Positions 591-31,880 of a stretch of DNA of 32,253 bases are shown in pieces. How positions within the stretch are numbered: the first letter of the stretch is position 1; each line of letters opens with the position of its first letter. Where the stretch lies: assembly GCA_964477635.1 (NCBI GenBank), contig CAYZEG010000001.1:1-32253 (forward strand). The letters are read 5' to 3'. The notes under the pieces were generated by a model that saw nothing but the letters and a program-made list of their open reading frames with translations, ran no database searches and was not told where the DNA came from. The position numbers were made by a program, and so were the translations under genes. The stretch comes from Candidatus Woesearchaeota archaeon. Lineage in GTDB: Archaea; Nanobdellota; Nanobdellia; Pacearchaeales; GW2011-AR1.

Positions 591-610
591 TAACTTCAAC
601 AAACAGTTAT

Positions 611-1099
611 ATGATTGAATCTTTGAATGAAGATAAATTAAAAGAATTGTTTGAACAATCAAGAAATTCTTCAAGAAGAAGGGCAATCAGAACTTTTCAG
701 GAGGATTCTTACCCAGGACCGCAGATTGGATTAAATGTCATACAGCCTGAAAGTTATACAAGACCACACTTTCGTTACAGCGATGAATACATTCTGCATT
801 ACTCTGGAAAATTATGTTTCCTTGTGTTAGACGAATCTGGACATGTTAGAAGAGGGCAAGTATTAAGCAAGGAGTCTCCGTATCTTTTTCTTCCAGCTAA
901 AGCTTATCATACTCTTGTTTCTTTGGAAAAAGATTCTGCACTTTGGTTTGTGACTCAGGGTCCGTTTGACCCGAATAATTTCAGGCAAGATTTTCCAGGC
1001 TCTCCGACGGAGAAAGAAGATTATGCGGAATATTTTGATTGGTTGAAAAAAATGGCTTTGATAACAGAAGGTTTAGGCAGATTAAAAAAAGAAAATTGA
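611..1099 (+). CDS. WbuC-family cupin-fold protein
   Basis: SRNSSRRRAIRTF...YTRPHFRYSDEYILHYSGKLCFLVLDESGHV resembles WbuC-type cupins found in O-antigen clusters. ATG 611 is preferred over the track ATG 560. Motif 573-590 ends 21 nt before 611, whereas the nearest TATA-like run before 560 ends only 15 nt away. Confidence 0.6.
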   Translation: MIESLNEDKLKELFEQSRNSSRRRAIRTFQEDSYPGPQIGLNVIQPESYTRPHFRYSDEYILHYSGKLCFLVLDESGHVRRGQVLSKESPYLFLPAKAYHTLVSLEKDSALWFVTQGPFDPNNFRQDFPGSPTEKEDYAEYFDWLKKMALITEGLGRLKKEN

Positions 1100-11783: not shown

Positions 11784-11784
11784 T

Positions 11785-16204: not shown

Positions 16205-16224
16205 TCCTAAAAGCTGGGATTTTC

Positions 16225-16242
16225 GTTTAAATAGATTATGAA
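16225..16242 (-). promoter_or_regulatory. BRE/TATA-like promoter motif upstream of C-methyltransferase-cupin #2
   Basis: The minus strand reads TTCATAATCTATTTAAAC and ends 21 nt before ATG 16204. Confidence 0.65.
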
Positions 16243-16271
16243 GATTTGTTGCATATCTTATGTGATTTGAT

Positions 16272-16289
16272 TCTATAAACTTTATAAAC
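16272..16289 (+). promoter_or_regulatory. BRE/TATA-like promoter motif
   Basis: TCTATAAACTTTATAAAC ends 21 nt before ATG 16310. Confidence 0.6.
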
Positions 16290-16309
16290 AATTTTTATCT
16301 TTGAAAAAT

Positions 16310-17290
16310 ATGGATTTTGATTTTTCTGGAATGGCTGGAAAAAACGCGCTTATAACTGGCGGCGCCGGTTTTCTTGGAAGCAATCTTGCAAAAAAACTTG
16401 TAGAATTAAATGCAAATGTTACACTTTTCCTTTCTACGGGAAAAGATAAAAAAAATGTTGCCGACATTGAAAACAAAATAAAAATCATCGAGGGAAATTT
16501 GACAAACGATGCCGATGTTTCGGATGCTGTAAAAAACAAAGATTATATTTTCCATTTTGCGTGGCAAACAGACTTGAAAAAATCAATGCAGAATCCAAAG
16601 GGAGATTTAATGGCGGATGTTCTTGGAACCATAAGCTTGCTTGAAATTTGCAAGAAAGAAAATCCAAGAGTAAAAATTATCTTTGCCAGCACAACAACCG
16701 TTGCGGGACTGCCGCTAAAAATTCCAACAAATGAAAATCATCCTGAAAATCCATTATCTATTTACGATGCAAATAAACTGCTGGCGGAAAAATACCTTCA
16801 AATATATTTTAAGAATGGTTTAAAGTTTTGCATTTTGCGGCTTTCAAATGTTTTCGGCGAGGGACAAAGGATAGACACTCCTAATAGGGGCGTTTTGAAT
16901 TTCATGATTGGCAGGGCCTTAAGGGGGGAAAAACTGACTGTTCATGGGAAAGGCGATTTTATCCGCGATTATTGCTATGTTCAAAATTATATCGACGCAT
17001 TTATTTTAGCGGCTTTGTCTGAAAAAACAAACGGGGAAATTTATGTTTTAGGTTCAGGCGAAGGGAGAACAATGAATGAGGTTGTTGAAAAAATAAAAAA
17101 AATCACCGAGGATTTGACCGGAAAAGGCGTTGTTATAGAACATATTTCCTTCCCCGAGGGCGAAAATGAAATTAATAAAAGAAATTTTGTTGCAGATTTT
17201 TCAAAATTCAAAAACGATGCTGGATGGTTTCCAAGAATTTCTTTTGATGAAGGATTAAATAGAACGATTGAATTTTACCTGAACAAATGA
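16310..17290 (+). CDS. NAD-dependent epimerase/dehydratase (extended SDR)
   Basis: ITGGAGFLGSNL and YDANK (YxxxK). The track start at 16301 is a TTG. ATG 16310 is 21 nt after motif 16272-16289. Confidence 0.85.
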   Translation: MDFDFSGMAGKNALITGGAGFLGSNLAKKLVELNANVTLFLSTGKDKKNVADIENKIKIIEGNLTNDADVSDAVKNKDYIFHFAWQTDLKKSMQNPKGDLMADVLGTISLLEICKKENPRVKIIFASTTTVAGLPLKIPTNENHPENPLSIYDANKLLAEKYLQIYFKNGLKFCILRLSNVFGEGQRIDTPNRGVLNFMIGRALRGEKLTVHGKGDFIRDYCYVQNYIDAFILAALSEKTNGEIYVLGSGEGRTMNEVVEKIKKITEDLTGKGVVIEHISFPEGENEINKRNFVADFSKFKNDAGWFPRISFDEGLNRTIEFYLNK

Positions 17291-18513
17291 CTGTATTTTG
17301 CAAATAAATCTTTATCTCTTATGTCAATAACTTTTCTTAAATCCTCGGTAATTCCAGGAACTGCATACACTTCGTCATTTTTATCTGAAAGCATGCTTAA
17401 TTTTTCTTGCGAATAACCAACATATTCATTCATTGTAGTCAAAAAAGCATTGCACCAAGCATGCCTAGTTTTGTCGTCCAATTTCCCAAACATTTTATCA
17501 AGGGTTTTGGCAGTTTTATTTCCAAGATTGGAAGGCTCAATTTTTTCAGACAAAAACAATTTCCAGGAATTTCTTATATCCCATTCAGTATCTATAAAAA
17601 AGCGCGGCGCATTTTGTGTTGAATTGATTATTCTGTCTATTCTTTCTTTTGATTTATTCCTTAACTCAACCATGAATCCATAATCATATTCTCCATATGG
17701 AGATTCATTGCTTTGCGAGTCTGCAAACATTTTCATATGCTCCGACATTGTCTGATTTCTTTTTTTATTCTCGTCAACCTGCTCTGCGAATGGCCTTAAT
17801 GATGGTTTCATATGATTTTCAAAATCAACATCAAAATTTTCCTTTCCATCAAAATCTTTATGCACTTCTCCCAGCGTCAAATAATGTCTTCCTATGAAAG
17901 TTGGTCCGTTGCAATCAAGCCTGTCAATCCAGCGAGTAAACCAAACTGGCCACAGCGGTTGATTATTTTTATCAAATTCTAAATATGGTTTTATTATCCT
18001 GGTTTCTCCGTCGGCACACTCAATCTTTGATTCTGTTCTGTAATGTGTGTGTGCCGCCATTGTATAAACTATTGAAATTTTTTCCGCATCATTTAAACTT
18101 GTGTCTTTATCAAGCAATTGTTTAACCAACAAAGAGCCGGCTTCCGCATGCCTTACTGCCCTTTTATCTTCTTCATATCTCGGAACTACCGCGCATCCGA
18201 TGTCGTGCAATGCGCCACCGACAAAACCAGGCAGAATATGTTTTGGATTGGCATCCAATTTGCTAAATAATATCACTGCATTCATGTAATCTCTCATAAT
18301 ATGCCCCGGTCCATGCCCCGGCTCTATGTTTGAAAAATCATAATGTTTTCCAAACTCTGAAAGAGTTCTTTGAACGATATTTCTTGCCTTTTCCACGGCA
18401 TCTTCTCTGGAACTTACCCTGATGTCATTCAATAAATTGGGACTGAAAGAATTTCTAATCTCCTGCATTTCATTCCAAGCCGTTGCCTCGTCCTCAAAAT
18501 TATATTTTTCCAT
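17275..18513 (-). CDS. HD-domain phosphohydrolase-like protein with a long uncharacterised C-terminal region
   Basis: HGPGHIMRD...GGALHDIG...RHAEAG...AAHTHY...IDRLD fits the H..HD..H..H..D metal-binding pattern. ATG 18513 is preferred. The track ATG 18546 lies inside the promoter motif itself (TTCATAATGC). Confidence 0.55.
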   Translation of the reverse strand: MEKYNFEDEATAWNEMQEIRNSFSPNLLNDIRVSSREDAVEKARNIVQRTLSEFGKHYDFSNIEPGHGPGHIMRDYMNAVILFSKLDANPKHILPGFVGGALHDIGCAVVPRYEEDKRAVRHAEAGSLLVKQLLDKDTSLNDAEKISIVYTMAAHTHYRTESKIECADGETRIIKPYLEFDKNNQPLWPVWFTRWIDRLDCNGPTFIGRHYLTLGEVHKDFDGKENFDVDFENHMKPSLRPFAEQVDENKKRNQTMSEHMKMFADSQSNESPYGEYDYGFMVELRNKSKERIDRIINSTQNAPRFFIDTEWDIRNSWKLFLSEKIEPSNLGNKTAKTLDKMFGKLDDKTRHAWCNAFLTTMNEYVGYSQEKLSMLSDKNDEVYAVPGITEDLRKVIDIRDKDLFAKYSHLFR

Positions 18514-18534
18514 TATCTCAGATTTGCTAAAATT

Positions 18535-18552
18535 GTTTAAAAGCATTATGAA
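18535..18552 (-). promoter_or_regulatory. BRE/TATA-like promoter motif for the HD-domain gene
   Basis: The minus strand reads TTCATAATGCTTTTAAAC and ends 22 nt before ATG 18513. Confidence 0.6.
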
Positions 18553-20908: not shown

Positions 20909-21808
20909 CTAAAAATATTTTTCAGTAAAATCTTTACTCTGCTTTTTAGCAAGATAATCTAAAATCTCAGATTGTTTTTTTGTCATCTGCGATAATTTTT
21001 CAATTATTTCTTTTTGGTTGTCATCTTTGGACGGGAATTTAAACGTCTCAGTAAAATCATTGGTATCGGACCAAAAGCCGTCTTCCGGAGATTCTTTTTT
21101 CTGCACAAGGTTGCTCGCCCTGTTAAGGCTTTCAAAAGTTCCAGCGTCGGACCAATAACCGCTGATTATATTATACTTGCATTTTCCATGATTCACATAA
21201 TATTCAATTGCGTCTGTAATTTCCAACTCTCCCCTTCCAGAAGGTTTAAGGGTTTTTATTATGTTGAAGATATCTGAATCAAACATATAAAGTCCGGTCA
21301 TTGCCAAATTTGATTTTGGTTTTTGCGGTTTTTCTTCCACGGAGACTACCTTGTCATTTTCAACAACGGCGACTCCAAATCTCATTGCGGCCTTCAAACC
21401 AACTTCTTTCAGAAAAATCTTTGCTCCGTCGCCATGTCTTTCAAAATCCTGCACAAAATCCTTCATGTTTTCTTCATAGATATTATCTCCCAGAATGACC
21501 GCAATTTTTTCATTTTTGGAAAAATCTTCCGCCAATGCGAGCGCTTGCGCAATTCCTCCCGCTTCGTCTTGAATTTCATATTTTAAACTCACGCCGAATT
21601 CCCTTCCGGAGCCGAGGAGATTTACAAAATCTCCTGCATGTCCGGGACCAGAGACAATCAAAATGTCTTTTATTCCTGCATCTATAAGTGTCCTCAAGGG
21701 ATAATAAATCATCGGCTTGTTATAAACTGGAAGCAAATGTTTATTGGTGACTTTTGTGCACGGATAAAGCCTGCTCCCAGTCCCACCGGCAAGAATTACG
21801 CCCTTCAT
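20909..21808 (-). CDS. rmlA: Glucose-1-phosphate thymidylyltransferase (sugar nucleotidyltransferase) with a ~60-aa charged C-terminal tail
   Basis: MKGVILAGGTGSRLYPCTKVTNKHLLPVYNKPMIYYPL is the canonical RmlA N-terminus. A GGGAG precedes ATG 21808. The track start 21835 adds 9 atypical residues. Confidence 0.85.
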   Translation of the reverse strand: MKGVILAGGTGSRLYPCTKVTNKHLLPVYNKPMIYYPLRTLIDAGIKDILIVSGPGHAGDFVNLLGSGREFGVSLKYEIQDEAGGIAQALALAEDFSKNEKIAVILGDNIYEENMKDFVQDFERHGDGAKIFLKEVGLKAAMRFGVAVVENDKVVSVEEKPQKPKSNLAMTGLYMFDSDIFNIIKTLKPSGRGELEITDAIEYYVNHGKCKYNIISGYWSDAGTFESLNRASNLVQKKESPEDGFWSDTNDFTETFKFPSKDDNQKEIIEKLSQMTKKQSEILDYLAKKQSKDFTEKYF

Positions 21809-21854
21809 TTGAAACAACTCCCATAAAATTTCCAAATAAATAAAAATATTTGTT

Positions 21855-22901
21855 TCATTTGACTTTCAAAGGTCTCCACCAGTTTTCATTATTCTTGTAC
21901 CATTCGGCGACGCTTTTAATTTCTTTGTATAAATCATTATGCATATTTCTAAAACCTATTTTTTTTATTTTATCGCTGGAAACGGAATATCTAAAATCAT
22001 GCGCCTTTCTGTGGGGAACTTTTTCAATCATTTCTTCCCCAAAATTAAATTGATTAAGCAAAAGCCTTGTCATGTTTATATTGGTCTGTTCGTTTTCTCC
22101 GGAAATGTTGTAGACATTTCCGTCATCCCCATTCTGCGAAGCAAACCATATTGCTCTGCAGTTGTCTTTTATATTAAGCCAGTCTCTCACATTAAGCCCC
22201 GGGTTTTCTTCACTCCACATCAACGGGACCTTTTTTCCATCAATTAAATTTGTTATGAAAAGCGGAAGAATTTTTTCAGGAAATTGATACTCTCCATAAT
22301 TGTTTGCGCTTCTTGTTATTATCACGGGGAATTTATGCGTCTTGAAGAGGGCAAGAGCATTCAGATCTGCCGCGGCTTTCGTTGCTGAATATGGACTGGA
22401 TGGATTTAATTTAGATTCTTCGTCGAAACTTCCGTTTTTTATGCTGCCATAAACCTCATCAGTGGAAATTTGCACGAATTTTTTTACATTATTTCTCATT
22501 GAAGATTTAAAGAGATTGCATGCCCCGAGAAAATTGCTTTTTTCAAAATTTTCCGAATCTCCTATGCTTCTGTCAACGTGACTTTCGGCGGCGAAATTAA
22601 ATATTGCATCTGGCTTGTGCTCTGAAATAATCCAATCAATAAAATTCCTATCGCAAATATCTGCCCTGATGAACTTGTAATTTCTATGCCACGAAAGGTT
22701 CATGTGCTCGATGTTTTTCCCTTCACCGGCATAACTAAGATTGTCAACATTTATTACGCAGATTTCTTGATTTATTTCCAGATCAGTCAAAAGATATTTT
22801 ATGAAATTACTTCCTATGAATCCAGATCCGCCAGTGACAATCACCTTCATTTTAATACTGTCTGAGAATTTGTTTAAAAGGTTTCTGGGCTTGAAACTCA
22901 T
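21855..22901 (-). CDS. rmlB: dTDP-glucose 4,6-dehydratase
   Basis: VTGGSGFIGSNF, STDEVYG, YSATK and overall RmlB-like blocks. ATG 22901 gives a 17-aa N-terminal extension and lies 21 nt from the shared TATA. The internal ATG at 22850 (MKVIVTGG) is an alternative start. Confidence 0.85.
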   Translation of the reverse strand: MSFKPRNLLNKFSDSIKMKVIVTGGSGFIGSNFIKYLLTDLEINQEICVINVDNLSYAGEGKNIEHMNLSWHRNYKFIRADICDRNFIDWIISEHKPDAIFNFAAESHVDRSIGDSENFEKSNFLGACNLFKSSMRNNVKKFVQISTDEVYGSIKNGSFDEESKLNPSSPYSATKAAADLNALALFKTHKFPVIITRSANNYGEYQFPEKILPLFITNLIDGKKVPLMWSEENPGLNVRDWLNIKDNCRAIWFASQNGDDGNVYNISGENEQTNINMTRLLLNQFNFGEEMIEKVPHRKAHDFRYSVSSDKIKKIGFRNMHNDLYKEIKSVAEWYKNNENWWRPLKVK

Positions 22902-24190: not shown

Positions 24191-25342
24191 ATGAAAATAG
24201 CCCACATAAACATGTTTTATCTTCCAACTTTTGGGGGGGTGGAACAAGTTATGTATGAACTTGCAAAAAGACAAGTCGCCGACGGCCACGAGGTCCATGT
24301 TTTTTGCTGCGATTCCGACAAAAAAAATAGGATTAAAAAAAAAGAAGAAATTATCGAGGGGGTGCATGTTCATAGATTGCCCTACCTATTCAGATTGTCT
24401 CTAAGCACATTCATCTGGCCTTCCCTATTATGGAAATTTCCGGGCTATTTTGACGTCATCCATAGTCATGTTTCCGGTCATGCGTATATCCTCATCGCCG
24501 GAATTTTATCAAGGATAAAGGGAATAAAACACATTCATACAACTCATTGTCCGTGGACAGATTTTTCTTTTAGGCCTAAGGTTTTGAGGCCATTTATCCT
24601 TATTAACAATTTTTTCTTAAACAGATTAGTTTTCAGATTTATTGATAAGATTATCGCAATAACTCCATGGGAAATAAACCAGCTTAAAAAATTTACAAAT
24701 TTTGATAAGATAAGAATCATTCAAAATGGCACGGACGGAATATTTTACAAAAAAATTAAGAAAAATAATTTTAAGAAAAAATATGGGATATGTGAAAAAA
24801 AAATTGTTCTTTTTTTTGGAAGGTTAAATCCCACAAAGGGTCCGGAAAAACTGGCTATTGCGGCGATAAATCTAACGAAATCCGGGAATGCAAAAGATAT
24901 TGCTTTTGTTTGGGTTGGTCCGGACGAAGGCATGGGAGAACAAGTTGCCGAGATGATAAAGCCGTATAAAAATATGTACTATTTTGGCCCCATACAGGGA
25001 AAGGAGAAAGTTGCGGAAATGTATCAGGCCGCAAATGTTTATATTCTGCCAAGTTACAGGGAAGGTTTGCCCTTGACTCTTTTTGAGGCTATGGCTTCAG
25101 GACTCCCAATAATCTCTTCCCCCGTTAATGGAATTCCCTATGAAATGAATGAAGAAGAAAATGGGATATTTGTGGGATATGGAGATACAATTAATTTAGA
25201 AAAAGCTATAATGAATATTTTGAATAATCTGAAAATCTCAAAGAAATTTTCTTTAAATAATGCAAAAAAATCTAAGAATTACGACTGGGATTTGATTTAT
25301 AAAAAATATATGGAGGAATATCTTTCTATATTGAATAATTAA
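24191..25342 (+). CDS. Glycosyltransferase family 4 (GT-B)
   Basis: EGLPLTLFEAMASGLPIISSPVNGIPYEM (EX7E region). It starts 3 nt after the DegT stop. Confidence 0.85.
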   Translation: MKIAHINMFYLPTFGGVEQVMYELAKRQVADGHEVHVFCCDSDKKNRIKKKEEIIEGVHVHRLPYLFRLSLSTFIWPSLLWKFPGYFDVIHSHVSGHAYILIAGILSRIKGIKHIHTTHCPWTDFSFRPKVLRPFILINNFFLNRLVFRFIDKIIAITPWEINQLKKFTNFDKIRIIQNGTDGIFYKKIKKNNFKKKYGICEKKIVLFFGRLNPTKGPEKLAIAAINLTKSGNAKDIAFVWVGPDEGMGEQVAEMIKPYKNMYYFGPIQGKEKVAEMYQAANVYILPSYREGLPLTLFEAMASGLPIISSPVNGIPYEMNEEENGIFVGYGDTINLEKAIMNILNNLKISKKFSLNNAKKSKNYDWDLIYKKYMEEYLSILNN

Positions 25343-25360
25343 TTCATAATACTTATAAAC
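25343..25360 (+). promoter_or_regulatory. BRE/TATA-like promoter motif for the radical SAM gene
   Basis: TTCATAATACTTATAAAC ends 21 nt before ATG 25381. Confidence 0.65.
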
Positions 25361-25380
25361 TGGATGTTTTTAGAGTGATA

Positions 25381-26928
25381 ATGAGGGTGACTTTAATTTC
25401 TACGTCAACATTTCCTTCTGATCAGGGGATGAGAACTTTGTCTGCATGCTTGGAGAGGGAAGGGCACGATGTCCTGATGATTTTCCTTCCTCTTGGTGAA
25501 GATTACACTCGAAAATATTTCGCAGATGAACTAAAACAGGTTGAGGAAAAATCCAGAGGAAGCGGTTTGGTGGGCATAGGTTCCATGGAGAGCACGACTG
25601 GAAGAGCAAAACAACTCGTTGACTTGTTTCAGAAGAAAGGAATTCCTGTTGTTTGGGGAGGCCCACATACCACTTTTTTCCCTGAAAAATGTTTTGAAGT
25701 TTGCGACATAATTGCCGTTGGCGAGGCAGAAGAAACTCTTGTTGAATTGGCGAACAAGATTCAGCAGGGGAAAAAAATAACGAATATACTCAATCTTTGG
25801 GTAAGGGAAAAAAATAAGGAATATCAAAATCCAGTAAGGCCTCCCGCGAACAATTTGGATGTATTGGCGCATCCGGATTATGATATTGAAGACCAATGGA
25901 TTTTAGAGAAGGGGAGGTTGATTCCATTTGAAGAAAGGCATTTATCGGGGATGATTTTTTTTCAAACGGAGAGGGGGTGTCCGCAGGCATGCTCATATTG
26001 CACAAACAACATATTAAGGGCGATTTACAAGGGAAAGGGGGATTTGTTAAGAACGCATAGCGTTGATTATGTCATTGAAGAATTTAAAAGGCTGAAAAAA
26101 AAATTCCCGTCAATTAAAGTTTTTGACATAAGGGATGAAACAATAACTGTTAGAAAATTGGACTGGCTGAGGGAATTTTCAAAAAGATACAGGGAAGAAA
26201 TAGGAATAAGATTCAAATGCCTTGCAGAGCCGGCAACGATGGCTTTTGGAGATGTCAGCGACGAGAAAATAAGATTGCTGGTTGAGGCGGGTTTGACGGA
26301 TATTATCATCGGAATACAAAGCGGAAGCGACAGATTAAACAAGGAAGTTTATAACAGATTCATCACGGCAGAGCAGGTCTTGAAATGCGCGCAGATTGTC
26401 AATAAGTATAAGGACAAACTAACCGTCATGTATGATATTATCAGCTGCAATCCTTACGAAACAAATGAGGACATAATAGCCACGATAAGACTTTTGCAGA
26501 AAATTCCCAAACCCTATTTCTTAAGCGTCAATAATCTTATCTTCTTTGAAGGAACGCCTCTTTATAGGAAAGCATTGGAAGACGGGCTCCTGAAAACATA
26601 TAATGATGAGGCAAATAATTTAAATTACTGGGATCGTTGGAAGCACATAAAATTAAAAAAGAAAAATCCTTACTTGAATTTAGTTTTAAACATGATGAGG
26701 GGTCCGTGCACCAATAAAAGATACGGGATGATTCCCGCCCCATTGGTTGACTATTTAACAAGCCCTGAAAGGATTGAATATAATGTAAAGAATGAAAGAC
26801 CAACTTATGCCGTCGGAGAGATGGTGGAAGTCGTTGATGATGTCAGGGAAAAAATAGTAAAGCCAGTATATCGTTCAATGCCCGTCCCGTTCAAGCTTTG
26901 GTATGACAAAATAAGATACAAAGCTTGA
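25381..26928 (+). CDS. B12-binding-domain radical SAM enzyme (class B)
   Basis: N-terminal B12-binding-like Rossmann region, then ERGCPQACSYCTN (CxxxCxxC). ATG 25381 is 21 nt after motif 25343-25360. The track start at 25375 is a GTG. Confidence 0.8.
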   Translation: MRVTLISTSTFPSDQGMRTLSACLEREGHDVLMIFLPLGEDYTRKYFADELKQVEEKSRGSGLVGIGSMESTTGRAKQLVDLFQKKGIPVVWGGPHTTFFPEKCFEVCDIIAVGEAEETLVELANKIQQGKKITNILNLWVREKNKEYQNPVRPPANNLDVLAHPDYDIEDQWILEKGRLIPFEERHLSGMIFFQTERGCPQACSYCTNNILRAIYKGKGDLLRTHSVDYVIEEFKRLKKKFPSIKVFDIRDETITVRKLDWLREFSKRYREEIGIRFKCLAEPATMAFGDVSDEKIRLLVEAGLTDIIIGIQSGSDRLNKEVYNRFITAEQVLKCAQIVNKYKDKLTVMYDIISCNPYETNEDIIATIRLLQKIPKPYFLSVNNLIFFEGTPLYRKALEDGLLKTYNDEANNLNYWDRWKHIKLKKKNPYLNLVLNMMRGPCTNKRYGMIPAPLVDYLTSPERIEYNVKNERPTYAVGEMVEVVDDVREKIVKPVYRSMPVPFKLWYDKIRYKA

Positions 26929-27651
26929 TTATTTCCTTGCAATTCTAAAGTCATTCATTTTTGTTTTATATTTTGTCGTGTCTTTGACATTCGCCCAATA
27001 AAATCCTTCTTGCCTCAATCTGCAAGCAAGACAAAAACCGCAATGTTCTTTTTTCCCGACATAACAGCTAAAGGTGTCCTTAAAATTTACTCCCAATTTA
27101 TACCCCAGAACAATTATTTCTTCCTTATCTTTCTTTATCAGTGGAGCTAAAATTCTTATCGGTTTTGAACAGGAAATTTTAGCCAGAGAATTTACACTTT
27201 TAACAAATTTCTCCGTAGTATCTGGATAATTTTCTTTGCCTTCATTTTTGAATCCAACAAAAATGTCGTAATTCTTTTTTTCTTTGATTGAAAGAGATTC
27301 TGCCAAAGCCATGGCGTGAATTAAAAAAATTGTATTTCTGCACGGGACATAAAATTTTTCGGATTCTTTTTTTGTGTTTTTCAAGTCTTTTATCATTAAT
27401 TTTTGTGTTTTTCCTTCCCTATTGATTAAAGAAGTTGAAATTTTTCCAAGCCAGCCTAGTTTTATCTCTATAAATTCTGCCCCTAGTTTTTTTGCGCATT
27501 TGTGCGAATATTTTCTTTCTGAAATAAGGGATTTTTGCCCGTAATCAAAAAAGATATTTTTTATATTATCATACTTTAAAATTTTTTTCACGTAATAACT
27601 TGTCGTCACGCTATCAATACCGCCGGAACATAAGACTATGGCATTTTTCAT
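26929..27651 (-). CDS. queC: 7-cyano-7-deazaguanine synthase (QueC)-family PP-loop ATPase
   Basis: AIVLCSGGIDS PP-loop, FDYGQ, VPCRN, YPD, APL..K.EI and the C-terminal zinc cluster SCY...HCGFCLACRLR. ATG 27651 (MKNAIVL) is 21 nt from the shared TATA. The track start 27690 overlaps the promoter. Confidence 0.8.
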   Translation of the reverse strand: MKNAIVLCSGGIDSVTTSYYVKKILKYDNIKNIFFDYGQKSLISERKYSHKCAKKLGAEFIEIKLGWLGKISTSLINREGKTQKLMIKDLKNTKKESEKFYVPCRNTIFLIHAMALAESLSIKEKKNYDIFVGFKNEGKENYPDTTEKFVKSVNSLAKISCSKPIRILAPLIKKDKEEIIVLGYKLGVNFKDTFSCYVGKKEHCGFCLACRLRQEGFYWANVKDTTKYKTKMNDFRIARK

Positions 27652-27663
27652 GTGTAATCTCAT

Positions 27664-27689
27664 TTGATAATCTTTATAAGCATAACCCA
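27664..27689. promoter_or_regulatory. Bidirectional promoter sharing one palindromic TATA box (queC <-> mini-IF5A/GT2)
   Basis: The plus-strand 18-mer TTGATAATCTTTATAAGC (27664-27681) ends 21 nt before ATG 27702. The minus-strand 18-mer TGGGTTATGCTTATAAAG (27672-27689) ends 21 nt before ATG 27651. The palindrome CTTTATAAG is exactly centred between the two ATGs. Confidence 0.6.
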
Positions 27690-27701
27690 TTAAATGAATT
27701 T

Positions 27702-27896
27702 ATGAAAAAGCAGGCAAAGGATTTGAAAAAAGGCGAGAAAATAAAAATAGCAAACAGATTATTCACCGTAAATGAATTTGAGATTTCAGATATTGGAAAA
27801 CAAGGGAAGAGAAAAGTTAGGGTGGTGGCTTATGATGAAAATGGGGAAAAAATTGTTCTCATAAGGCCCGAAGATTACCCATTTGAAACGGGATAA
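27702..27896 (+). CDS. Stand-alone IF5A N-terminal-domain-like mini-protein (64 aa)
   Basis: KDLKKGEKIKI...FEISDIGKQGKRKVRVVAYDENGEKI aligns by eye to aIF5A domain I (..LK.G..I.I......IS..GKHG.AK.R.V..), including the hypusine-loop GK.G. There is no C-terminal OB domain. ATG is 21 nt after motif 27664-27681. The first 34 codons of the track ORF overlap the queC promoter and gene. Confidence 0.6.
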   Translation: MKKQAKDLKKGEKIKIANRLFTVNEFEISDIGKQGKRKVRVVAYDENGEKIVLIRPEDYPFETG

Positions 27897-27897
27897 G

Positions 27898-28803
27898 ATG
27901 ATACATATAATTATCACTTCATTTAATGAACCAAGAGCGACGCTTAGGGCGGTAAAATCTTTTCTTAATCAGAAAATATTGGATGACTTTAAGATAATTG
28001 TCGTCGACCCATTTAAAGAAACCGAGGAATTTTTAAAAAAAGAATTACAAGACAAACGAGTGGGTTTTTTTCTTGACTTGGGAGAGGGAAAAAGCTATGC
28101 TCTAAATCTTTTATTCCAAGAGATTTATTCGAAAAATAGTGGGGATGTGATAATATTGAGCGATGGCGACGTTTATGTTTCTGAAAATTCTGTCTCCGAA
28201 ATCTTGAGCGCATTTAATGATTCTGAAGTTGGATGCGTAGCTTGCAAGCCCGTTTCCATTGATTCAATAAAAACAAAATATGGATACTGGTCTCACTTGT
28301 TATTTAATGGAATTCATAATGTAAGAAGAAAACATCATCAAAAAGGGCAATTTTTTGAATGTTCCGGTTATTTATTTGCAATAAGAAACGGGGTGATATT
28401 TAATTTCCCGATGGAAGTTTCCGAAGATTCTATAATTCCATATCTTTTTTGGAAAAAGGGATACAAGATTTTTTATGCGGATAAGGCGGAAGTATATGTA
28501 AAAAATCCAGATAATTTCAAAGATTGGAAAAATCAAAAAATAAGAAACATAAAAGGGCATGAAAATCTAAATAAAATCTTTCCTAATATGCCAAGAACAA
28601 AAACATTCTTCAACGAGATAAAAAAAGGGGCGCTTTTTTCCTTGAAACATCCGAGAAATTTAAGGGAATTTTATTGGCTTTTGCAGCTTTATCTGGCAAG
28701 GTTGTATATTTACATAAAAGCTTTTCAGGAAATAAAGCAAAAAAAATCATTTCAAGATGGTTGGCGTGAAACTGAAATAAATTCAACAAAGCCGTTAGAT
28801 TAA
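27898..28803 (+). CDS. Glycosyltransferase family 2 (no obvious TM domain)
   Basis: IIITSFNEP start block, LSDGDVYV (DxD), SEDS (ED) and NQKIRNIKG (QxxRW-like). The first ATG, at 27898, is 1 nt after the mini-IF5A stop. The track start at 27883 is a TTG. Confidence 0.8.
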   Translation: MIHIIITSFNEPRATLRAVKSFLNQKILDDFKIIVVDPFKETEEFLKKELQDKRVGFFLDLGEGKSYALNLLFQEIYSKNSGDVIILSDGDVYVSENSVSEILSAFNDSEVGCVACKPVSIDSIKTKYGYWSHLLFNGIHNVRRKHHQKGQFFECSGYLFAIRNGVIFNFPMEVSEDSIIPYLFWKKGYKIFYADKAEVYVKNPDNFKDWKNQKIRNIKGHENLNKIFPNMPRTKTFFNEIKKGALFSLKHPRNLREFYWLLQLYLARLYIYIKAFQEIKQKKSFQDGWRETEINSTKPLD

Positions 28804-29214
28804 TTCTGAGATTTTTTTCTCCAGCTCATCCATTGTTTTTAGTATGGGCATGGAACCAATAAGAATTGAACTCAAATAATCCAGCGCCTCGTCAACGGAT
28901 TCGTCGGTTTTTATTCCCACGGCAGGAATTCCTCTGGCATAGGCATAGCCAAGTTCCCACGCCGTTCCGGCGCCGACATGCAAACCGTCAAGAACCGCGA
29001 CAACTAAATCAACGTCCTTAAATCCGACATTTATATCTCCATCAAAAATTCGGTTTACATCATGTATGTTCTTTATAATCCCGACATCCCTATGGGGGAG
29101 AAATGTTTTTAGTCCCAGGGATTTGCATAACTCATCGACTTTTTCCAGTAATGCCTTTTCATTTTCCGTGCCTATCTTTCCGGCGATATATACTTTTTTT
29201 GTTTTTCTTTCCAT
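28795..29214 (-). CDS. Nucleoside 2-deoxyribosyltransferase-like protein
   Basis: VYIAGKI...DLVVAVLDGLHVGAGTAWELGYAYARGIPAVG fits the family pattern (YLAG...ADxVVAxLDG..xDxGTxxExGxAxAxGKPV) with the catalytic Glu in WELGYA. Confidence 0.7.
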   Translation of the reverse strand: MERKTKKVYIAGKIGTENEKALLEKVDELCKSLGLKTFLPHRDVGIIKNIHDVNRIFDGDINVGFKDVDLVVAVLDGLHVGAGTAWELGYAYARGIPAVGIKTDESVDEALDYLSSILIGSMPILKTMDELEKKISELI

Positions 29215-29253
29215 AATCCTTAAAAAAGGGTTTCAGTTTTAAATTTAACTATG
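29210..29253. promoter_or_regulatory. Interleaved divergent promoters (NDT-like <-> GT9)
   Basis: The plus-strand motif TCCATAATCCTTAAAAAA (29210-29227) ends 24 nt before ATG 29251 and contains the CAT of the minus-strand start at 29214. The minus-strand motif CATAGTTAAATTTAAAAC (29236-29253) ends 22 nt before ATG 29214 and contains the CAT of ATG 29251. Confidence 0.5.
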
Positions 29254-30276
29254 AAAAAGATATGCATCATAAAACTCGGCGCGCTCGGAGATGTAATAAG
29301 GACATTGCCGATTTTAATAGGGATAAAGGAAAAATATCCTGATTCGGAGATTTCATGGATAACAAAAAAAGACAGTTTTGAAATGGTTAAAAACAGCCCC
29401 CATGTAAAAAAAATGTTAATATTGCCTTTCGAGCCCCGGGAATCTTTTGATATTTTGTATAATTTTGACATTGATGATGAAGCCACATTTTTGGCTGGGA
29501 AAATAAATTCCAAAAAAAAATATGGATTTTATTCTGATGGCGGATTTGTCTCTGCTTTTAATATCGGCGCAGAGTATTATTTAAACACTATTTTTGACGA
29601 TGAAATAAAAAAAACAAATGCCAAAACTTATCAGGAAATGATTTTTATGGCAGCTGAATTACCCTACAAAAGACAATATCATGCCATAATCCTTTCTGAA
29701 GAAACGAAGAAATATGCGGGAAATTTTTTTGAAGAAAATAAAATCAATTCCGGAAAATTAATCGGGATGCATCTTGGGGCAAGCGCAAGATGGCCGTCTA
29801 AAGTTTGGCATAAGGAAAACTTGAAGGATTTCATAAAAAAAGCGAAATCTGCGGGTTATGAAATTATATTGTTCGGCGGGCCTAATGAGACGGAAGAGCT
29901 TGAAAAAATAAAAAAACAATTTTCAGAATCCGGCATAATGCTGCATGCAAATAATCCTTATAACACTGCCATGCAATTTGCTTCACTCGTTGAAAAATGC
30001 AATTTTATGATATGTTCGGATAGCTTTTCTCTTCATATTTCTCTCGCCTTGGGAAAGCAAACAATAGGCCTTTTTTTCTGCACATCGTCAAAAGAAGTTG
30101 AAGGATATGATTTGCTTAAAAAAATTGAGTCTCCGATGCTTTATAATTTTTTCCCGGAAAGAATGAATGAATATGATGAGAATCTTGTTAAAAGCATTTC
30201 TTCGGAAGAAGTTTTTAATAAGATTGTTGAATTTGGGATAAAAACAAATAAAAACAATTTGCCAATGGATATATGA
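29251..30276 (+). CDS. Glycosyltransferase family 9 (heptosyltransferase-like)
   Basis: ICIIKLGALGDVIRTLPIL, GASARWPSKVW, ILFGGPNE and CSDSFSLHISLALGKQTIGLF are the classic GT9 blocks. Confidence 0.85.
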   Translation: MKKICIIKLGALGDVIRTLPILIGIKEKYPDSEISWITKKDSFEMVKNSPHVKKMLILPFEPRESFDILYNFDIDDEATFLAGKINSKKKYGFYSDGGFVSAFNIGAEYYLNTIFDDEIKKTNAKTYQEMIFMAAELPYKRQYHAIILSEETKKYAGNFFEENKINSGKLIGMHLGASARWPSKVWHKENLKDFIKKAKSAGYEIILFGGPNETEELEKIKKQFSESGIMLHANNPYNTAMQFASLVEKCNFMICSDSFSLHISLALGKQTIGLFFCTSSKEVEGYDLLKKIESPMLYNFFPERMNEYDENLVKSISSEEVFNKIVEFGIKTNKNNLPMDI

Positions 30277-31880
30277 TGGAAAATGACTCAGTTTCTGAAA
30301 GAAAAAATAAGCTAAAGAATTTTTTTCTTGGCTGGATGACTGATAATTATGACAAGCTTTTCTTGATGATTCTTGCAACGGCTTTTCTTTTGAGAATATG
30401 GATTTTTACAAAAACCTTAAATCAGCCGGTATGGTGGGACGGGGCGGATTACATGGCTGCGGCCATCAGATGGGCGGGAATAAATCCAAACATGATTGAT
30501 ATGTGGTATTACAGAAGAGGTCTTTTCTGGCCTTTGTTTCAAGCCTTATTTTTTAAATTTGGACTTGGAGAAACTGGAATAAGGCTCGCACTTGTATTTT
30601 TTTCAACAGGCATCGTCTTTGTTTCGTATACGCTTCTCAAAGACATGTTTAACAAAAAAATGGCAATTCTAGCAAGCATTTGTCTTTCATTTTCATGGAT
30701 TTTTATGTTTTTTACGGGAAGAACTTTAAACAATCTTCCAGGAGCATTTTTCTTGCTGACATCTCTAATGTTTTTTTGGAAGGGCTACGTTCTAAAGAAA
30801 GGGAATAAGTATATTTATTTGTTCGGCCTTTTTTTCGCAATCACATCCTTGATGAGGATGCAATATGTCCTGTCTGCAATCCCGCTTATTATTTTTGTTT
30901 TTATAAAAGAAAGGCATCGTTTTTTGTTTAATAAACATCTTTGGATTGCAGTCGGAATTTTTGCCATTATGTTCATCCCACAATTTTATCTTCATTATCA
31001 ACATTTTGGAAACCCCATAGCCGATTTGTCAAAATATTATCTTGGTGTAGGCAATTCTGAAAAAGGAGAAGTTGGAGTAAGATTGGCAAAAACATCCGAC
31101 TTATTTGTATATTTTAATAATCTTCCTTATATTTTGGATGCGAATCAAAAAGGATATCACACGCTTTTCACATTCAGTCCGCTGTATCTTATATTCCTAG
31201 TCGGGTTCTTTTTCTTCTTTCTGGATGCTGTTTTAGGTTTTGATAGAATTTTCAGGGACGAAGAAATTCAAAAAAAATTCTTTATTTTGATATGGATTTC
31301 CATATCGTTTTTATTTTTAGGTTACATAGCACCACATCTTGAGCAAAGATATATTATGGATGACATTCCATTTTTATTTCTAATCGCAGTTTATCCATAT
31401 GCAATGATTGAAGGATATTTAACAAAAACTTTTAATATGAAACCTCGAACTGCTTTTTTATTCATTTGTTTGGTGCTATTCCTGGTTTTAATCCCTAATA
31501 TCATCTTTGGGAATAATCTAATAGAATCGAAAAAAACTTCGTATATTGAAGCTAAAGAAGCGGGTTTATGGATTAAGGAAAATTCAAATCCAACAGATGT
31601 CATAATATCGGATTCATTACCGCAACTCACCTATTACTCGGAAAGATCTGTTTATCCATTTAATTTGGCTCCGCGTAGAGATATGGAACGTAAAAATGAA
31701 TCAGACTTGTTGGATTTTATTAAAACAGACAAGCCAAAATTTATGACTCTCACAGCATTCGAAAACCAAGATGACTGGGCTATGGCATTTCCGCAAAACC
31801 ATCCAGATTTGGTTGTTCCAGTTCAAGTTTACAAGCAAGGGGAACAACCTGTTTTTGTAATTTACGAATTTAAATATTAA
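30273..31880 (+). CDS. GT-C-fold integral membrane glycosyltransferase (ArnT/PMT, GT39/GT83-like)
   Basis: The 535-aa protein has many hydrophobic helices, an acidic first-loop motif (VWWDGADY) and a ~100-aa soluble C-terminal domain. Its ATG overlaps the GT9 stop (ATGA), indicating translational coupling. Confidence 0.7.
   Translation: MMENDSVSERKNKLKNFFLGWMTDNYDKLFLMILATAFLLRIWIFTKTLNQPVWWDGADYMAAAIRWAGINPNMIDMWYYRRGLFWPLFQALFFKFGLGETGIRLALVFFSTGIVFVSYTLLKDMFNKKMAILASICLSFSWIFMFFTGRTLNNLPGAFFLLTSLMFFWKGYVLKKGNKYIYLFGLFFAITSLMRMQYVLSAIPLIIFVFIKERHRFLFNKHLWIAVGIFAIMFIPQFYLHYQHFGNPIADLSKYYLGVGNSEKGEVGVRLAKTSDLFVYFNNLPYILDANQKGYHTLFTFSPLYLIFLVGFFFFFLDAVLGFDRIFRDEEIQKKFFILIWISISFLFLGYIAPHLEQRYIMDDIPFLFLIAVYPYAMIEGYLTKTFNMKPRTAFLFICLVLFLVLIPNIIFGNNLIESKKTSYIEAKEAGLWIKENSNPTDVIISDSLPQLTYYSERSVYPFNLAPRRDMERKNESDLLDFIKTDKPKFMTLTAFENQDDWAMAFPQNHPDLVVPVQVYKQGEQPVFVIYEFKY

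What the first reader, a model, noticed from the sequence alone, without database searches (positions are those of the whole stretch)
27702..28803. Stand-alone IF5A N-domain mini-protein translationally coupled to a GT2 glycosyltransferase inside a dTDP-sugar island
Seen in sequence:
- The 64-aa ORF (MKKQAKDLKKGEKIKIANRLFTVNEFEISDIGKQGKRKVRVVAYDENGEKIVLIRPEDYPFETG) aligns by eye over its full length to the SH3/KOW-like N-terminal domain of archaeal aIF5A.
- The match includes the hypusine-loop pattern IS..GK.G..K.RV. The canonical loop is GKHG; here it is GKQG followed by KRK.
- The ORF ends exactly where the C-terminal OB domain should begin.
- It has its own promoter motif at the canonical 21-nt distance.
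- Its TAA is followed after 1 nt by the ATG of a soluble-looking GT2 with DGD, ED and QxxR-like motifs.

Established knowledge: the bacterial homologue EF-P is modified at the tip of the equivalent loop. In one lineage that modification is arginine rhamnosylation by the glycosyltransferase EarP, using dTDP-L-rhamnose.

Inference: within an island that makes dTDP-sugars, this pair could be a substrate plus its glycosyltransferase, giving a glycosylated IF5A-like factor. Alternatively it could be a decoy paralogue of aIF5A. I am not aware of either being described in archaea.
Basis: partly seen in the sequence, partly recalled or inferred. Interest (0 to 1): 0.72.

Follow-up and report, generated by a model that had tools for sequence, protein, structure and literature searches.

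The report
Stand-alone IF5A domain in enzyme module
A 64-residue copy of just the lysine-tipped first domain of translation factor aIF5A sits in tiny DPANN archaea beside the same four soluble enzymes (QueC-type ligase, two glycosyltransferases, nucleoside-transferase-like protein), suggesting an undescribed protein-modification system.

Summary
ORF 27702-27896 encodes a 64-aa protein with the fold and loop of IF5A/EF-P domain I: AF2 pLDDT 91, Foldseek TM 0.85-0.88 to eIF5A/aIF5A/EF-P, profile E=9e-6 to aIF5A. The hypusine-position lysine is invariant. Its stop codon is 1 nt from the ATG of a soluble GT2.

It belongs to a large family of about 64-aa proteins (at least 282 clusters, 71 GTDB species of Pacearchaeota/Nanoarchaeota-type DPANN archaea).

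The mini-GT2 pair is part of a fixed block: QueC-family enzyme (-) | 50-nt spacer with one central TATA box | mini (+) GT2 (+) | PF05014 nucleoside-deoxyribosyltransferase-like (-) | GT9 (+). Counts: GT2 79/79, QueC 76/77, PF05014 71/76, GT9 65/69. The block holds down to about 36% mini identity.

Canonical 128-130-aa aIF5A lies elsewhere (FtsZ-FKBP-aIF5A-M50). One genome carries both on one contig, 8.6 kb apart, and there the block lies outside any sugar island. So the mini is an extra paralogue, not a reduced aIF5A.

The function is inferred. Most likely K33 is covalently modified by module enzymes. The QueC-type ligase is at least as good a candidate as the GT2. The EarP/dTDP-rhamnose analogy is weak. 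I found no description in the literature searched.

The parts
27702..27896 (+). mini-IF5A: a 64-aa stand-alone IF5A/EF-P domain I with invariant loop E27, S29, K33, G35, K38, R40 and C-terminal motif IRPEDYPF
27898..28803 (+). Soluble 301-aa GT2 (GT-A) of the hyaluronan/cellulose/chitin-synthase type. Carries D37, D89xD91, E176-D177, Q213xxR216-N217. Has no TM segment. Its C-terminal tail (DGWR...T...D) is conserved but modelled with low confidence.
   Evidence: directly downstream of the mini in 79/79 loci
27652..27701 (.). 50-nt spacer between the divergent QueC and mini start codons. A single central TATA box (TTTATAA, 27673-27679) lies 21-22 nt from each ATG. Likely a shared bidirectional promoter for leaderless mRNAs.
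   Evidence: consensus aAtAAacTTTATAA; first T 29 nt before the mini ATG in 45/60 loci; about 50-nt spacing in most loci
26929..27651 (-). QueC-family (PF06508) ATP-pyrophosphatase/ligase of 240 aa. Homologues start at MKNAIVL (ATG at 27651), not at the longer ORF start 27690. It keeps SGGxDS, YxQ(x)5E, PxRN and four Zn cysteines. It lacks the His of YxQxHxxE and the Cys of YPDC.
   Evidence: (TIGR00364 152.1 vs cutoff 150.3); divergently upstream of the mini in 76/77 loci
28795..29214 (-). PF05014 nucleoside 2-deoxyribosyltransferase-like protein of 139 aa, with conserved Y.AG, LPHRD and GTaWE.GY (catalytic-Glu motif)
   Evidence: present in 71/76 loci
29251..30276 (+). GT9 (heptosyltransferase-like, GT-B) of 341 aa
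   Evidence: present in 65/69 loci
24191..26928 (+). Frequent but not constant neighbours: GT4 (24191-25342) and a B12-binding radical SAM enzyme (25375-26928)
30273..31880 (+). PMT_2-type membrane glycosyltransferase (GT-C like); a frequent but not constant downstream neighbour

Best explanation
Shown. The 64-aa protein is a paralogue of aIF5A reduced to domain I. It keeps the exact loop geometry and the lysine that carries hypusine in aIF5A. It exists alongside a normal two-domain aIF5A. It is one gene of a self-contained, vertically inherited five-gene block in Nanoarchaeia-type DPANN archaea: QueC-family enzyme, mini-IF5A, soluble GT2, PF05014 protein, GT9. All five proteins are predicted to be soluble. 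QueC and mini-GT2 diverge from one 50-nt spacer with a single central TATA box. Mini and GT2 are usually translationally coupled.

Inferred. The mini is the dedicated protein acceptor (or carrier) of this enzyme set, and its invariant tip lysine K33 is covalently modified. My preferred order of events has three steps.
1. The QueC-family enzyme adenylates a carboxylate and ligates it to the K33 epsilon-amine. The carboxylate is most simply 7-carboxy-7-deazaguanine. The chemistry matches that of EpmA on EF-P Lys34, and of the QueC relatives Cap9 and QatC on their adjacent-encoded protein substrates.
2. The PF05014 enzyme, GT2 and GT9 then extend the adduct with ribosyl or sugar groups.
3. The product is a long-armed IF5A-like module. 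Its target (ribosome E/P site, tRNA CCA end, or something else) is unknown.

Probabilities. About 0.4 that K33 is modified by at least one module enzyme. About 0.2 that the first step is QueC-type acylation. About 0.15 that the first step is direct glycosylation by the GT2.
For: - Fold and loop.
- Family size and uniform length of about 64 aa.
- Block conservation in 71 GTDB species and in deeper GKHG-type relatives (QueC 39-53% and GT2 43-56% identical to the window's).
- About 55 canonical aIF5A loci have none of these neighbours. They lie in FtsZ-FKBP-aIF5A-M50 instead.
- Both genes occur on one contig in three independent assemblies, and there the block is outside any sugar island.
- Shared central TATA and fixed 50-nt spacing. 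ATGA or 1-4 nt mini/GT2 junctions.
- All four enzymes keep their catalytic motifs.
- The module QueC never has QueD or QueE next to it, and its substrate-pocket motifs are altered in 83/83 orthologues.
- Literature precedent: QueC-family enzymes ligate carboxy-deazaguanine to amines of proteins encoded next to them (PMC13082051; bioRxiv 10.1101/2025.04.06.647259).
- Established knowledge (from memory): in the EF-P/IF5A family the loop-tip residue is the modification site, and in bacteria the modifying enzymes (EarP, EpmA/EpmB) are often encoded next to efp.
- The five proteins evolve at similar rates and their distance matrices correlate (r 0.64-0.69; weak evidence).
Against: - There is no direct evidence of any modification.
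- Synteny in a single lineage can persist through co-regulation alone.
- The QueC homologue passes NCBI's QueC equivalog cutoff, though barely. It is closer to canonical QueC than to Cap9, so it may simply make preQ0.
- Cap9 and QatC modify N-terminal alpha-amines, not lysine side chains. The mini's N-terminus is MKK, not Gly.
- The GT2 resembles sugar-to-sugar polymerising synthases, not known protein glycosyltransferases.
- A Proteobacterial QueC-like cluster is linked to PfkB-PF05014 proteins without any IF5A-like partner (PMC13082051). QueC plus PF05014 could therefore be small-molecule nucleoside chemistry.
- Co-residence with a canonical aIF5A was shown for the GKHG-type clade only. It was not shown for the window's own GKQG-type clade.
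Confidence: 0.4

Rival explanations
1. One reading: the GT2 alone glycosylates the mini at the loop, as EarP does on EF-P, using a dTDP-sugar made by the surrounding island.
For: - Mini-GT2 is the tightest pair. GT2 follows the mini in 79/79 loci, with frequent overlapping stop/start codons.
- The pair persists in L032, where QueC, PF05014 and GT9 are not within 8 kb.
- RmlA and RmlB are in the window.
- The GT2 has a conserved C-terminal tail modelled at low confidence, which could be a partner-binding motif.
Against: - The tip residue is Lys, not Arg.
- The GT2 is a GT-A of the HAS/BcsA/Chs type with D, DxD, ED and QxxR motifs. Those motifs normally act on a sugar acceptor.
- The dTDP-sugar genes are absent around the block in L172-L174 and vary elsewhere.
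Confidence: 0.15
2. The mini is a non-covalent partner: a small beta-barrel subunit or adaptor of the GT2 or the whole enzyme set. It may bind RNA or tRNA and help make or deliver a 7-deazapurine nucleoside or glycoconjugate. It is not itself a substrate.
For: - Translational coupling suggests matched stoichiometry.
- The mini is basic (pI 9.5; family median 9.3), like RNA-binding KOW/SH3 barrels.
- QueC-like plus PF05014 associations exist in bacteria without an IF5A-like protein (PMC13082051).
- The mini's distances correlate best with those of PF05014 (partial r 0.42; weak).
Against: An adaptor role does not explain why the hypusine-loop geometry and K33, G35, K38 and R40 are strictly invariant across both clades.
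Confidence: 0.2
3. The mini is an independent translation factor, a minimal aIF5A paralogue acting on the ribosome. It may be (deoxy)hypusinated by the host DHS. It lies next to these genes only because of shared regulation or inherited gene order.
For: - The loop S-x-I-G-K-[HQ]-G-x-x-K matches the DHS- and ribosome-contacting loop of aIF5A.
- The fold superposes on ribosome-bound eIF5A domain I.
- In L172 the block lies among translation and transcription genes.
Against: - The link to the four enzymes holds in about 95 loci across deep divergence, while the outer flanks change.
- The canonical aIF5A never shares these neighbours.
- The enzymes carry no conserved polyproline motifs that a cis-encoded helper might serve.
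- The OB domain is absent. From memory, it contributes to ribosome binding by IF5A.
Confidence: 0.15
4. The block is an anti-virus defence system of the QueC-conjugation type (like QatABCD or type IV CBASS), with the mini as the conjugated sensor or effector.
For: A QueC-family enzyme lies beside a small protein. PF05014-like domains occur as effectors in some defence systems (from memory).
Against: - PADLOC finds only a generic QueC match and nothing for the other four proteins.
- The block is at a fixed locus, evolves like core genes, is present in at least 71 species, and is absent from IMG/VR contigs.
- No ATPase, nuclease, CD-NTase or TGT-like partner is present.
Confidence: 0.03

Closest known systems
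Archaeal/eukaryotic IF5A (aIF5A/eIF5A), domain I with the hypusine loop
   Same: It has the same SH3/KOW-like barrel (TMq 0.85-0.88). The loop has the same length, with conserved S, G, K, G and K. The lysine sits at the hypusine position. The N-terminal A..LK.G motif is shared.
   Different: There is no C-terminal OB domain. It scores far below the family cutoffs (TIGR00037 17.2 vs 75.45). His is replaced by Gln next to the lysine in most members of the window's clade. It lies at a separate locus and coexists with a canonical aIF5A.
EF-P with its tip-modifying enzymes (EarP arginine rhamnosylation; EpmA/EpmB beta-lysylation)
   Same: A domain-I loop-tip residue is encoded next to candidate modifying enzymes. 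ATP-dependent acylation of a tip lysine (EpmA) matches what a QueC-type ligase could do. Sugar-nucleotide genes are nearby in the window.
   Different: EarP is a GT-B acting on Arg, whereas here the enzyme is a GT-A and the residue is Lys. EpmA is a LysRS paralogue, not a PP-loop/QueC enzyme. EF-P keeps all its domains.
QueC-family protein conjugation (Cap9 in type IV CBASS; QatC-QatB)
   Same: A PF06508 enzyme is encoded directly beside a small protein. The module QueC carries the YxQ(x)5E spacing that PMC13082051 reports for Cap9. ATP-dependent amide formation with a protein amine is established for this family.
   Different: Those systems modify N-terminal alpha-amines and are patchy defence islands with CD-NTase/Cap10 or QatA/QatD partners. 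Here the partners are GT2, PF05014 and GT9, the block is core-like, and the enzyme is overall closer to canonical QueC.
Processive GT2 synthases (hyaluronan synthase, BcsA, chitin synthase, NodC)
   Same: They are the best structural matches of the GT2. The D, DxD, ED and QxxR motifs are shared.
   Different: The GT2 has no transmembrane channel. The Trp of QxxRW is an invariant Asn. At 301 aa it is soluble.
Proteobacterial QueC-like 'Cluster 4' linked to PfkB-PF05014 proteins (PMC13082051)
   Same: A QueC-family enzyme is genomically tied to a PF05014 nucleoside-deoxyribosyltransferase-like protein. PfkB-type kinases also occur near some archaeal blocks.
   Different: The motifs differ (YGQ(x)6E and CH(x)5CxxCxGCxK in Cluster 4). 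No IF5A-like protein or glycosyltransferases are reported there.

Membership tests
IF5A/EF-P domain I (Pfam PF21485 IF5A-like_N / PF08207 EFP_N) | SH3/KOW-like six-stranded beta-barrel fold | tested here: met
   AF2 pLDDT 91.1. Foldseek top 50 are all IF5A/EF-P/EfpL, aligned over domain I, with TMq 0.73-0.90.
IF5A/EF-P domain I (Pfam PF21485 IF5A-like_N / PF08207 EFP_N) | Significant sequence-profile similarity | tested here: met
   Family profile vs PDB: aIF5A 1bkb E=9e-6, and IF5A entries dominate the hit list. The single sequence is just below the Pfam gathering scores (20.6 vs 27.1; 21.8 vs 23). Some relatives carry precomputed PF21485 hits.
IF5A/EF-P domain I (Pfam PF21485 IF5A-like_N / PF08207 EFP_N) | Basic residue at the tip of the beta3-beta4 loop (the modification site) | tested here: met
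   K33 aligns with the hypusine lysine. It is invariant in 116/116 close relatives and in all deeper relatives examined.
Canonical aIF5A (TIGR00037 / NF003076) | C-terminal OB-fold domain (PF01287) | tested here: not met
   The protein ends at residue 64. TIGR00037 scores 17.2 vs cutoff 75.45 and NF003076 scores 22.8 vs 138.
Canonical aIF5A (TIGR00037 / NF003076) | Single essential copy in a housekeeping context | tested here: not met
   A separate 129-aa aIF5A lies on the same contig. Canonical copies lie in FtsZ-FKBP-aIF5A-M50 and never beside the module.
Canonical aIF5A (TIGR00037 / NF003076) | (Deoxy)hypusination by deoxyhypusine synthase | not testable with these tools
   No whole genomes were available to look for DHS, and there is no proteomics.
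EF-P/EarP arginine-rhamnosylation system | Arginine at the loop tip | tested here: not met
   The tip is an invariant lysine.
EF-P/EarP arginine-rhamnosylation system | EarP-type GT-B glycosyltransferase | tested here: not met
   The neighbour is a Pfam GT2. Its best structural matches are hyaluronan, cellulose and chitin synthases.
EF-P/EarP arginine-rhamnosylation system | dTDP-rhamnose supply linked to the pair | tested here: inconclusive
   RmlA and RmlB are in the window. They are not conserved next to the block and are absent in L172-L174.
QueC-family protein deazaguanylation (Cap9/QatC type) | PF06508 enzyme encoded beside its protein substrate | tested here: met
   A divergent QueC lies 50 nt upstream of the mini in 76/77 loci. 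This is adjacency only; substrate status was not tested.
QueC-family protein deazaguanylation (Cap9/QatC type) | Companion proteins (CD-NTase + Cap10, or QatA/QatB/QatD) | tested here: not met
   PADLOC finds none. The neighbours are GT2, PF05014 and GT9.
QueC-family protein deazaguanylation (Cap9/QatC type) | Conjugation of carboxy-deazaguanine to a protein amine | not testable with these tools
   This needs mass spectrometry.
Canonical QueC (preQ0 synthase) | Signature motifs SGGxDS, YxQxHxxE, VPxRN, YPDC and C(x)8CxxCxxC (PMC13082051) | tested here: inconclusive
   SGGxDS, PxRN and the four Cys are kept. YxQ(x)5E lacks the His, YPDC has become [YFM][PK]D[TA], and the spacing is C(x)7C (83 orthologues). 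TIGR00364 scores 152.1 vs cutoff 150.3.
Canonical QueC (preQ0 synthase) | Linkage to queD/queE | tested here: not met
   Neither was seen in the gene tables of the roughly dozen loci that have Pfam annotation. The remaining mini loci were not searched for QueD or QueE.
Processive GT2 synthases (HAS/BcsA/Chs/NodC) | D, DxD, ED and QxxRW motifs | tested here: met
   D37, D89xD91, E176-D177 and Q213xxR216 are invariant. The Trp is replaced by an invariant Asn.
Processive GT2 synthases (HAS/BcsA/Chs/NodC) | Transmembrane translocation channel | tested here: not met
   The maximum 19-residue hydropathy is 1.01. The protein is 301 aa, with only C-terminal helices.

The most novel reading that the evidence does not exclude
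The hypusine-equivalent lysine of a dedicated mini-IF5A is acylated with a 7-deazaguanine carboxylate by a QueC-family ligase. The adduct is then ribosylated or glycosylated by the PF05014, GT2 and GT9 enzymes. The result would be a nucleobase/sugar-tipped IF5A-like factor. That would be a new kind of protein modification pathway, and a second modified IF5A-type factor, in DPANN archaea.
Probability: 0.15. Interest if true: 0.9.

Novelty: new variant of a known kind. Interest (0 to 1): 0.68.

Why it matters
IF5A/EF-P is a universal translation factor. Its defining feature is an unusual modification at one loop tip, and every known lineage-specific solution (hypusine, beta-lysine, rhamnose, aminopentanol) has revealed new enzymology.

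This family keeps only that loop-bearing domain and coexists with the normal factor. It is locked to a QueC-type ligase, two glycosyltransferases and a nucleoside-transferase-like enzyme in many genome-reduced DPANN archaea.

If the lysine is modified, this would be a new protein modification. It would also extend QueC-family protein conjugation beyond bacterial defence systems.

If it is not modified, it is still an unrecognised conserved module in organisms whose genomes retain little that is dispensable. It also warns against reading such MAG annotations as either 'aIF5A' or 'hypothetical protein'.

The hypothesis can be tested directly by co-expression and intact-mass measurement.

Tried and rejected
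1. Showing the mini and a canonical aIF5A in one genome by matching 'longest contig' lengths between mini hits and full-length hits gave no match.

2. Matching GenBank accession blocks of 14 mini-bearing Hainich MAGs against three full-length aIF5A accessions gave no overlap.

3. Looking up full-length aIF5A records for shared WGS prefixes gave no overlap: P0236 gave CAYHFT and JBBTBR, and P0264 gave JAWCQF.

4. What worked was a tblastn of canonical-locus neighbours against the mini loci. It found FtsZ and FKBP at the edge of L097, and a 10-kb-flank look-up then showed both genes on one contig.

5. A broad mini alignment (A2) was too diverse for the locus scanner.

6. A viral-contig scan found no mini.

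7. PADLOC found no defence-system match beyond a generic QueC hit.

8. The idea that the mini helps translate polyproline motifs in its neighbours was rejected. QueC and PF05014 have no PP at all, GT2 has PP in 4/84 orthologues, and GT9 in 18/73 without conservation.

9. The mirror-tree analysis did not single out one partner convincingly.

10. Literature searches for aIF5A with DPANN, Pacearchaeota with hypusine, deoxyhypusine synthase with DPANN, QueC with IF5A, aIF5A with paralog, and Pacearchaeota with QueC found no description.

11. A fused-chain complex prediction was not attempted. The tool returns no interface metrics and accepts only window or database sequences.
Full report
**What is at the coordinates**

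The ATG at 27702 opens a 64-aa ORF that ends with TAA at 27894-27896. One base later, ATG 27898 opens a 301-aa ORF that ends at 28803.

The longer TTG-initiated reading of the small ORF (from 27600) is not supported. All relatives start at MKK, and the region upstream is the start of a divergent gene.

The window is 34% G+C. It is largely a nucleotide-sugar and glycan island:
- RmlA 20909-21835 and RmlB 21855-22901
- two C-methyltransferase/epimerase fusions
- several SDR epimerases
- a sugar aminotransferase
- GT4, GT2, GT9 and PMT_2 genes

**Is the small protein an IF5A domain I?**

Yes.
- The single sequence gives sub-threshold but specific Pfam hits: EFP_N E=1.9e-4 and IF5A-like_N E=4e-4.
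- NCBIfam IF-5A matches at E=5.6e-5 over residues 2-58.
- A profile of 51 relatives hits P. aerophilum aIF5A (1bkb) at E=9e-6, and IF5A entries dominate the hit list.
- An AF2 model built on that alignment has mean pLDDT 91.1 and is all-beta.
- Its first 50 Foldseek matches in the PDB are all eIF5A, aIF5A, EF-P or EfpL, aligned over their domain I. TM-scores normalised to the query are 0.73-0.90 and rmsd is 1.0-2.6 A. The isolated EF-P domain I bound to EarP is among them.
- K33 in S-D-I-G-K-Q-G-K-R-K aligns with the hypusine lysine.
- The protein stops at the domain I/II boundary and has no OB domain.
- It scores far below the aIF5A equivalog cutoffs. It is therefore a member of the domain family, not an aIF5A.

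**Family**

The protein database holds at least 282 clusters (at 90% identity), almost all 62-65 aa. They come from MAGs labelled Pacearchaeota or Nanoarchaeota. NCBI calls them hypothetical proteins, and JGI auto-names some 'EF-P/IF5A'.

Invariant residues are A5, E27, S29, K33, G35, K38, R40, R55, P56, E57 and D58. Position 34 is Gln in 93 and His in 23 of 116 sequences.

An exhaustive HMMER search of 1.84 billion representatives finds 57 hits at E<=1e-3, nearly all 58-72 aa. These include a deeper branch with the canonical G-K-H-G loop.

A scan of one genome per GTDB species, using two strict peptide patterns, finds the gene in 71 species. None was found in IMG/VR contigs.

**Context**

Five long contigs first showed the same order: QueC (-) | mini (+) | GT2 (+) | PF05014 nucleoside-deoxyribosyltransferase-like (-) | GT9 (+).

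I then ran tblastn with the window's proteins on the 71 species loci and on 24 loci of the deeper GKHG-type branch. Counts below are among loci with enough flanking DNA.

| Neighbour | Loci with the gene in place | Notes |
|---|---|---|
| GT2, downstream | 79/79 | 71 within 60 nt; 19 with an ATGA overlap; median gap 2 nt |
| QueC, divergent upstream | 76/77 | only L032 lacks it |
| PF05014 | 71/76 | |
| GT9 | 65/69 | |

- The order holds where the mini is only about 36-50% identical to the window's, QueC 39-53% and GT2 43-56%.
- The outer flanks differ between loci (GT4, B12-radical SAM, PMT_2, HldE-like kinase/adenylyltransferase, NUDIX).
- Sampled from the GT2 side, 2/2 orthologues on other long contigs have a 63/64-aa mini upstream and the same neighbours.

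**Promoter**

The QueC and mini start codons are 50 nt apart in most loci.

The spacer has one strongly conserved element, aAtAAacTTTATAA. In the window, TTTATAA lies at 27673-27679, which is 21-22 nt from each ATG. Its first T is 29 nt before the mini ATG in 45 of 60 loci.

It also suggests a single bidirectional TATA box serving two leaderless transcripts, QueC on one side and mini-GT2 on the other. That reading is an inference from position, not from transcript data.

**Is it the organism's only aIF5A?**

No.
- Full-length aIF5A proteins (127-134 aa) from the same kinds of samples never have QueC, GT2, PF05014 or GT9 within 8 kb. This was checked in about 55 loci.
- A search with one of them returned 3116 relatives. 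These include proteins named IF-5A from Candidatus Pacearchaeota and Nanoarchaeota MAGs.
- Their context is FtsZ-FKBP-aIF5A-M50 peptidase.
- The decisive case came from finding FtsZ and FKBP at the edge of mini locus L097.
- With 10-kb flanks, three independent assemblies of that organism (L172-L174) show a 129-aa aIF5A with both Pfam domains at 961-1350. The QueC | mini | GT2 | PF05014 | GT9 block lies at 9234-12685 on the same contig.
- In that genome the block is flanked by SecE, Spt5, L11, L37ae, prefoldin and SepF on one side. NUDIX, ZPR1, Fic, Dph2 and GlyRS lie on the other. The block is therefore self-contained and does not depend on a dTDP-sugar island.
- This proof is for the GKHG-type branch. 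For the window's GKQG-type branch, coexistence is inferred from the abundance of Pacearchaeota-labelled canonical aIF5A.

**The neighbours**

GT2
- It has no hydrophobic segment (maximum 19-residue hydropathy 1.01).
- A confident AF2 model (pLDDT 89.2) matches hyaluronan synthases best. Next come PcManGT, BcsA, chitin synthase, TarP and AvpGT, with TMq 0.5-0.66.
- D37, D89xD91, E176-D177 and Q213xxR216 are invariant. Asn replaces the Trp of QxxRW.
- It is thus a TM-less relative of the polymerising GT2 synthases.
- Its last 20 residues are conserved (DGWR..T..D) but modelled with low confidence. That pattern would fit a partner-binding tail (inference).

QueC homologue
- It barely passes NCBI's QueC cutoff (152.1 vs 150.3).
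- It is closer to bacterial QueC structures than to Cap9.
- I compared 83 module orthologues with the catalytic signature defined in PMC13082051. They keep SGGxDS, PxRN and the four zinc cysteines.
- They carry YxQ(x)5E without the His, which is the spacing that paper reports for Cap9. They have [YFM][PK]D[TA] instead of YPDC.
- No queD or queE appears in the gene tables of the roughly dozen loci that carry Pfam annotation. The other mini loci were not searched for them.

PF05014 protein and GT9
- The PF05014 protein keeps the Y.AG and GT.WE.G catalytic-Glu motifs.
- GT9 resembles ADP-heptose heptosyltransferases. HldE-like genes occur near some blocks.

PADLOC recognises nothing but a generic QueC.

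**What it most likely does**

Shown: the mini is a conserved paralogue of the modified domain of aIF5A, held in a fixed five-gene block of soluble proteins. It is co-transcribed and often translationally coupled with a GT2, and it shares its promoter region with a QueC-family enzyme.

Inferred: the mini is the acceptor or carrier protein of this enzyme set, and K33 is the attachment site. Four lines of reasoning support this.
- The invariance of the whole hypusine-loop geometry.
- The rule in the EF-P/IF5A family that the loop tip is the modification site. In bacteria the modifying enzymes (EarP, EpmA/EpmB) are often encoded next to efp (from memory).
- The recent demonstration that QueC-family enzymes ligate carboxy-deazaguanine to amines of proteins encoded beside them.
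- The chemical parallel to EpmA.

I put about 0.4 on covalent modification by at least one module enzyme. Within that, QueC-type acylation as the first step (about 0.2) is slightly ahead of direct GT2 glycosylation (about 0.15).

The rivals are:
- a non-covalent adaptor or subunit role, perhaps RNA-binding, given pI 9.5, at about 0.2
- an independent minimal translation factor that is merely co-regulated, at about 0.15
- a defence system, at about 0.03

The polyproline-helper idea is rejected. A mirror-tree comparison shows that all five proteins evolve at similar rates with correlated distances. The mini correlates best with PF05014, but this is weak evidence.

**Comparison with the known**

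It works, at most, like EF-P/EarP or EF-P/EpmA in logic. It fails the EarP membership tests (Lys not Arg, GT-A not GT-B, and a dispensable rhamnose supply).

It resembles Cap9/QatC systems only in having a QueC-family enzyme beside a small protein.

PMC13082051 describes a Proteobacterial QueC-like cluster tied to PfkB-PF05014 proteins. This shows that the QueC-PF05014 link recurs without an IF5A-like protein, and it is the main reason to keep a small-molecule reading open.

I found no description of the mini family or of this block in the searchable literature.

**Verdict**

- The pairing is real and the mini is a paralogue.
- The EarP/dTDP-sugar analogy is weak.
- The larger module and the QueC partner were missed.

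This is a new variant of a known kind, with a testable and potentially new modification pathway.

Noticed in passing
window 27652-27701; same spacer in L008-L099 and L172: QueC and the mini diverge from a 50-nt spacer of fixed length. A single TATA box sits at its centre, equidistant from both start codons. This looks like one bidirectional promoter for two leaderless mRNAs.
   Followed up: partly
window 27898-28803 (GT2 residues 282-301): The C-terminal tail of the GT2 is strongly conserved (Y.DGWR.....ST...D; D287, G288, W289, R290, T297 and D301 are invariant). AF2 models it with low confidence (pLDDT 38-63). It may be a partner-binding segment.
   Followed up: no
L172 12720-13088; L176 5424-5825; 14 of 95 mini loci: A NUDIX hydrolase gene directly follows GT9 in a minority of loci, in both mini clades. 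It may be an occasional sixth member of the block. In the window, PMT_2 follows GT9 instead.
   Followed up: partly
L001 7574-9005; L006 8650-10062; L032 11082-12497: PfkB kinase plus cytidylyltransferase-like genes (HldE-like ADP-heptose synthesis) lie near the block in some genomes. This fits the GT9 being a heptosyltransferase.
   Followed up: no
proteins P0165 (163 aa) and P0138 (2699 aa): P0165 has the first 37 residues of a mini, up to the loop, fused to an unrelated helical-looking C-terminus. P0138 is a giant protein with nine stretches matching profile positions 11-32. Neither was examined.
   Followed up: no
proteins P0173-P0175 and P0177: These are 77-107-aa aIF5A-like proteins with a canonical N-domain and aberrant C-termini. 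They may be frameshifted or truncated gene calls of canonical aIF5A.
   Followed up: no
L160 3405-3566; L169 1397-1558; L173 773-934: A conserved 53-aa ORF lies between the canonical aIF5A and the M50 peptidase gene in several genomes. It has no Pfam hit.
   Followed up: no
window 1106-2794 and 14471-16291 (both -): Two large fusion proteins combine a zinc-ribbon/C-methyltransferase (Methyltransf_13/14) with a cupin or dTDP-sugar-isomerase-like C-terminus. They suggest branched or C-methylated deoxysugar synthesis.
   Followed up: no
window 560-1099 (+) and 17275-18546 (-): ORFs of 179 aa and 423 aa inside the sugar island have no Pfam match at E<=1e-3.
   Followed up: no
L159 (ENA ERZ1286166 contig_490, 760 kb): This is a nearly genome-sized Nanoarchaeota contig carrying the canonical aIF5A. 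Its FtsZ gene is split into fragments, which suggests long-read indel errors. Exact-match protein look-ups can therefore miss genes on it.
   Followed up: no
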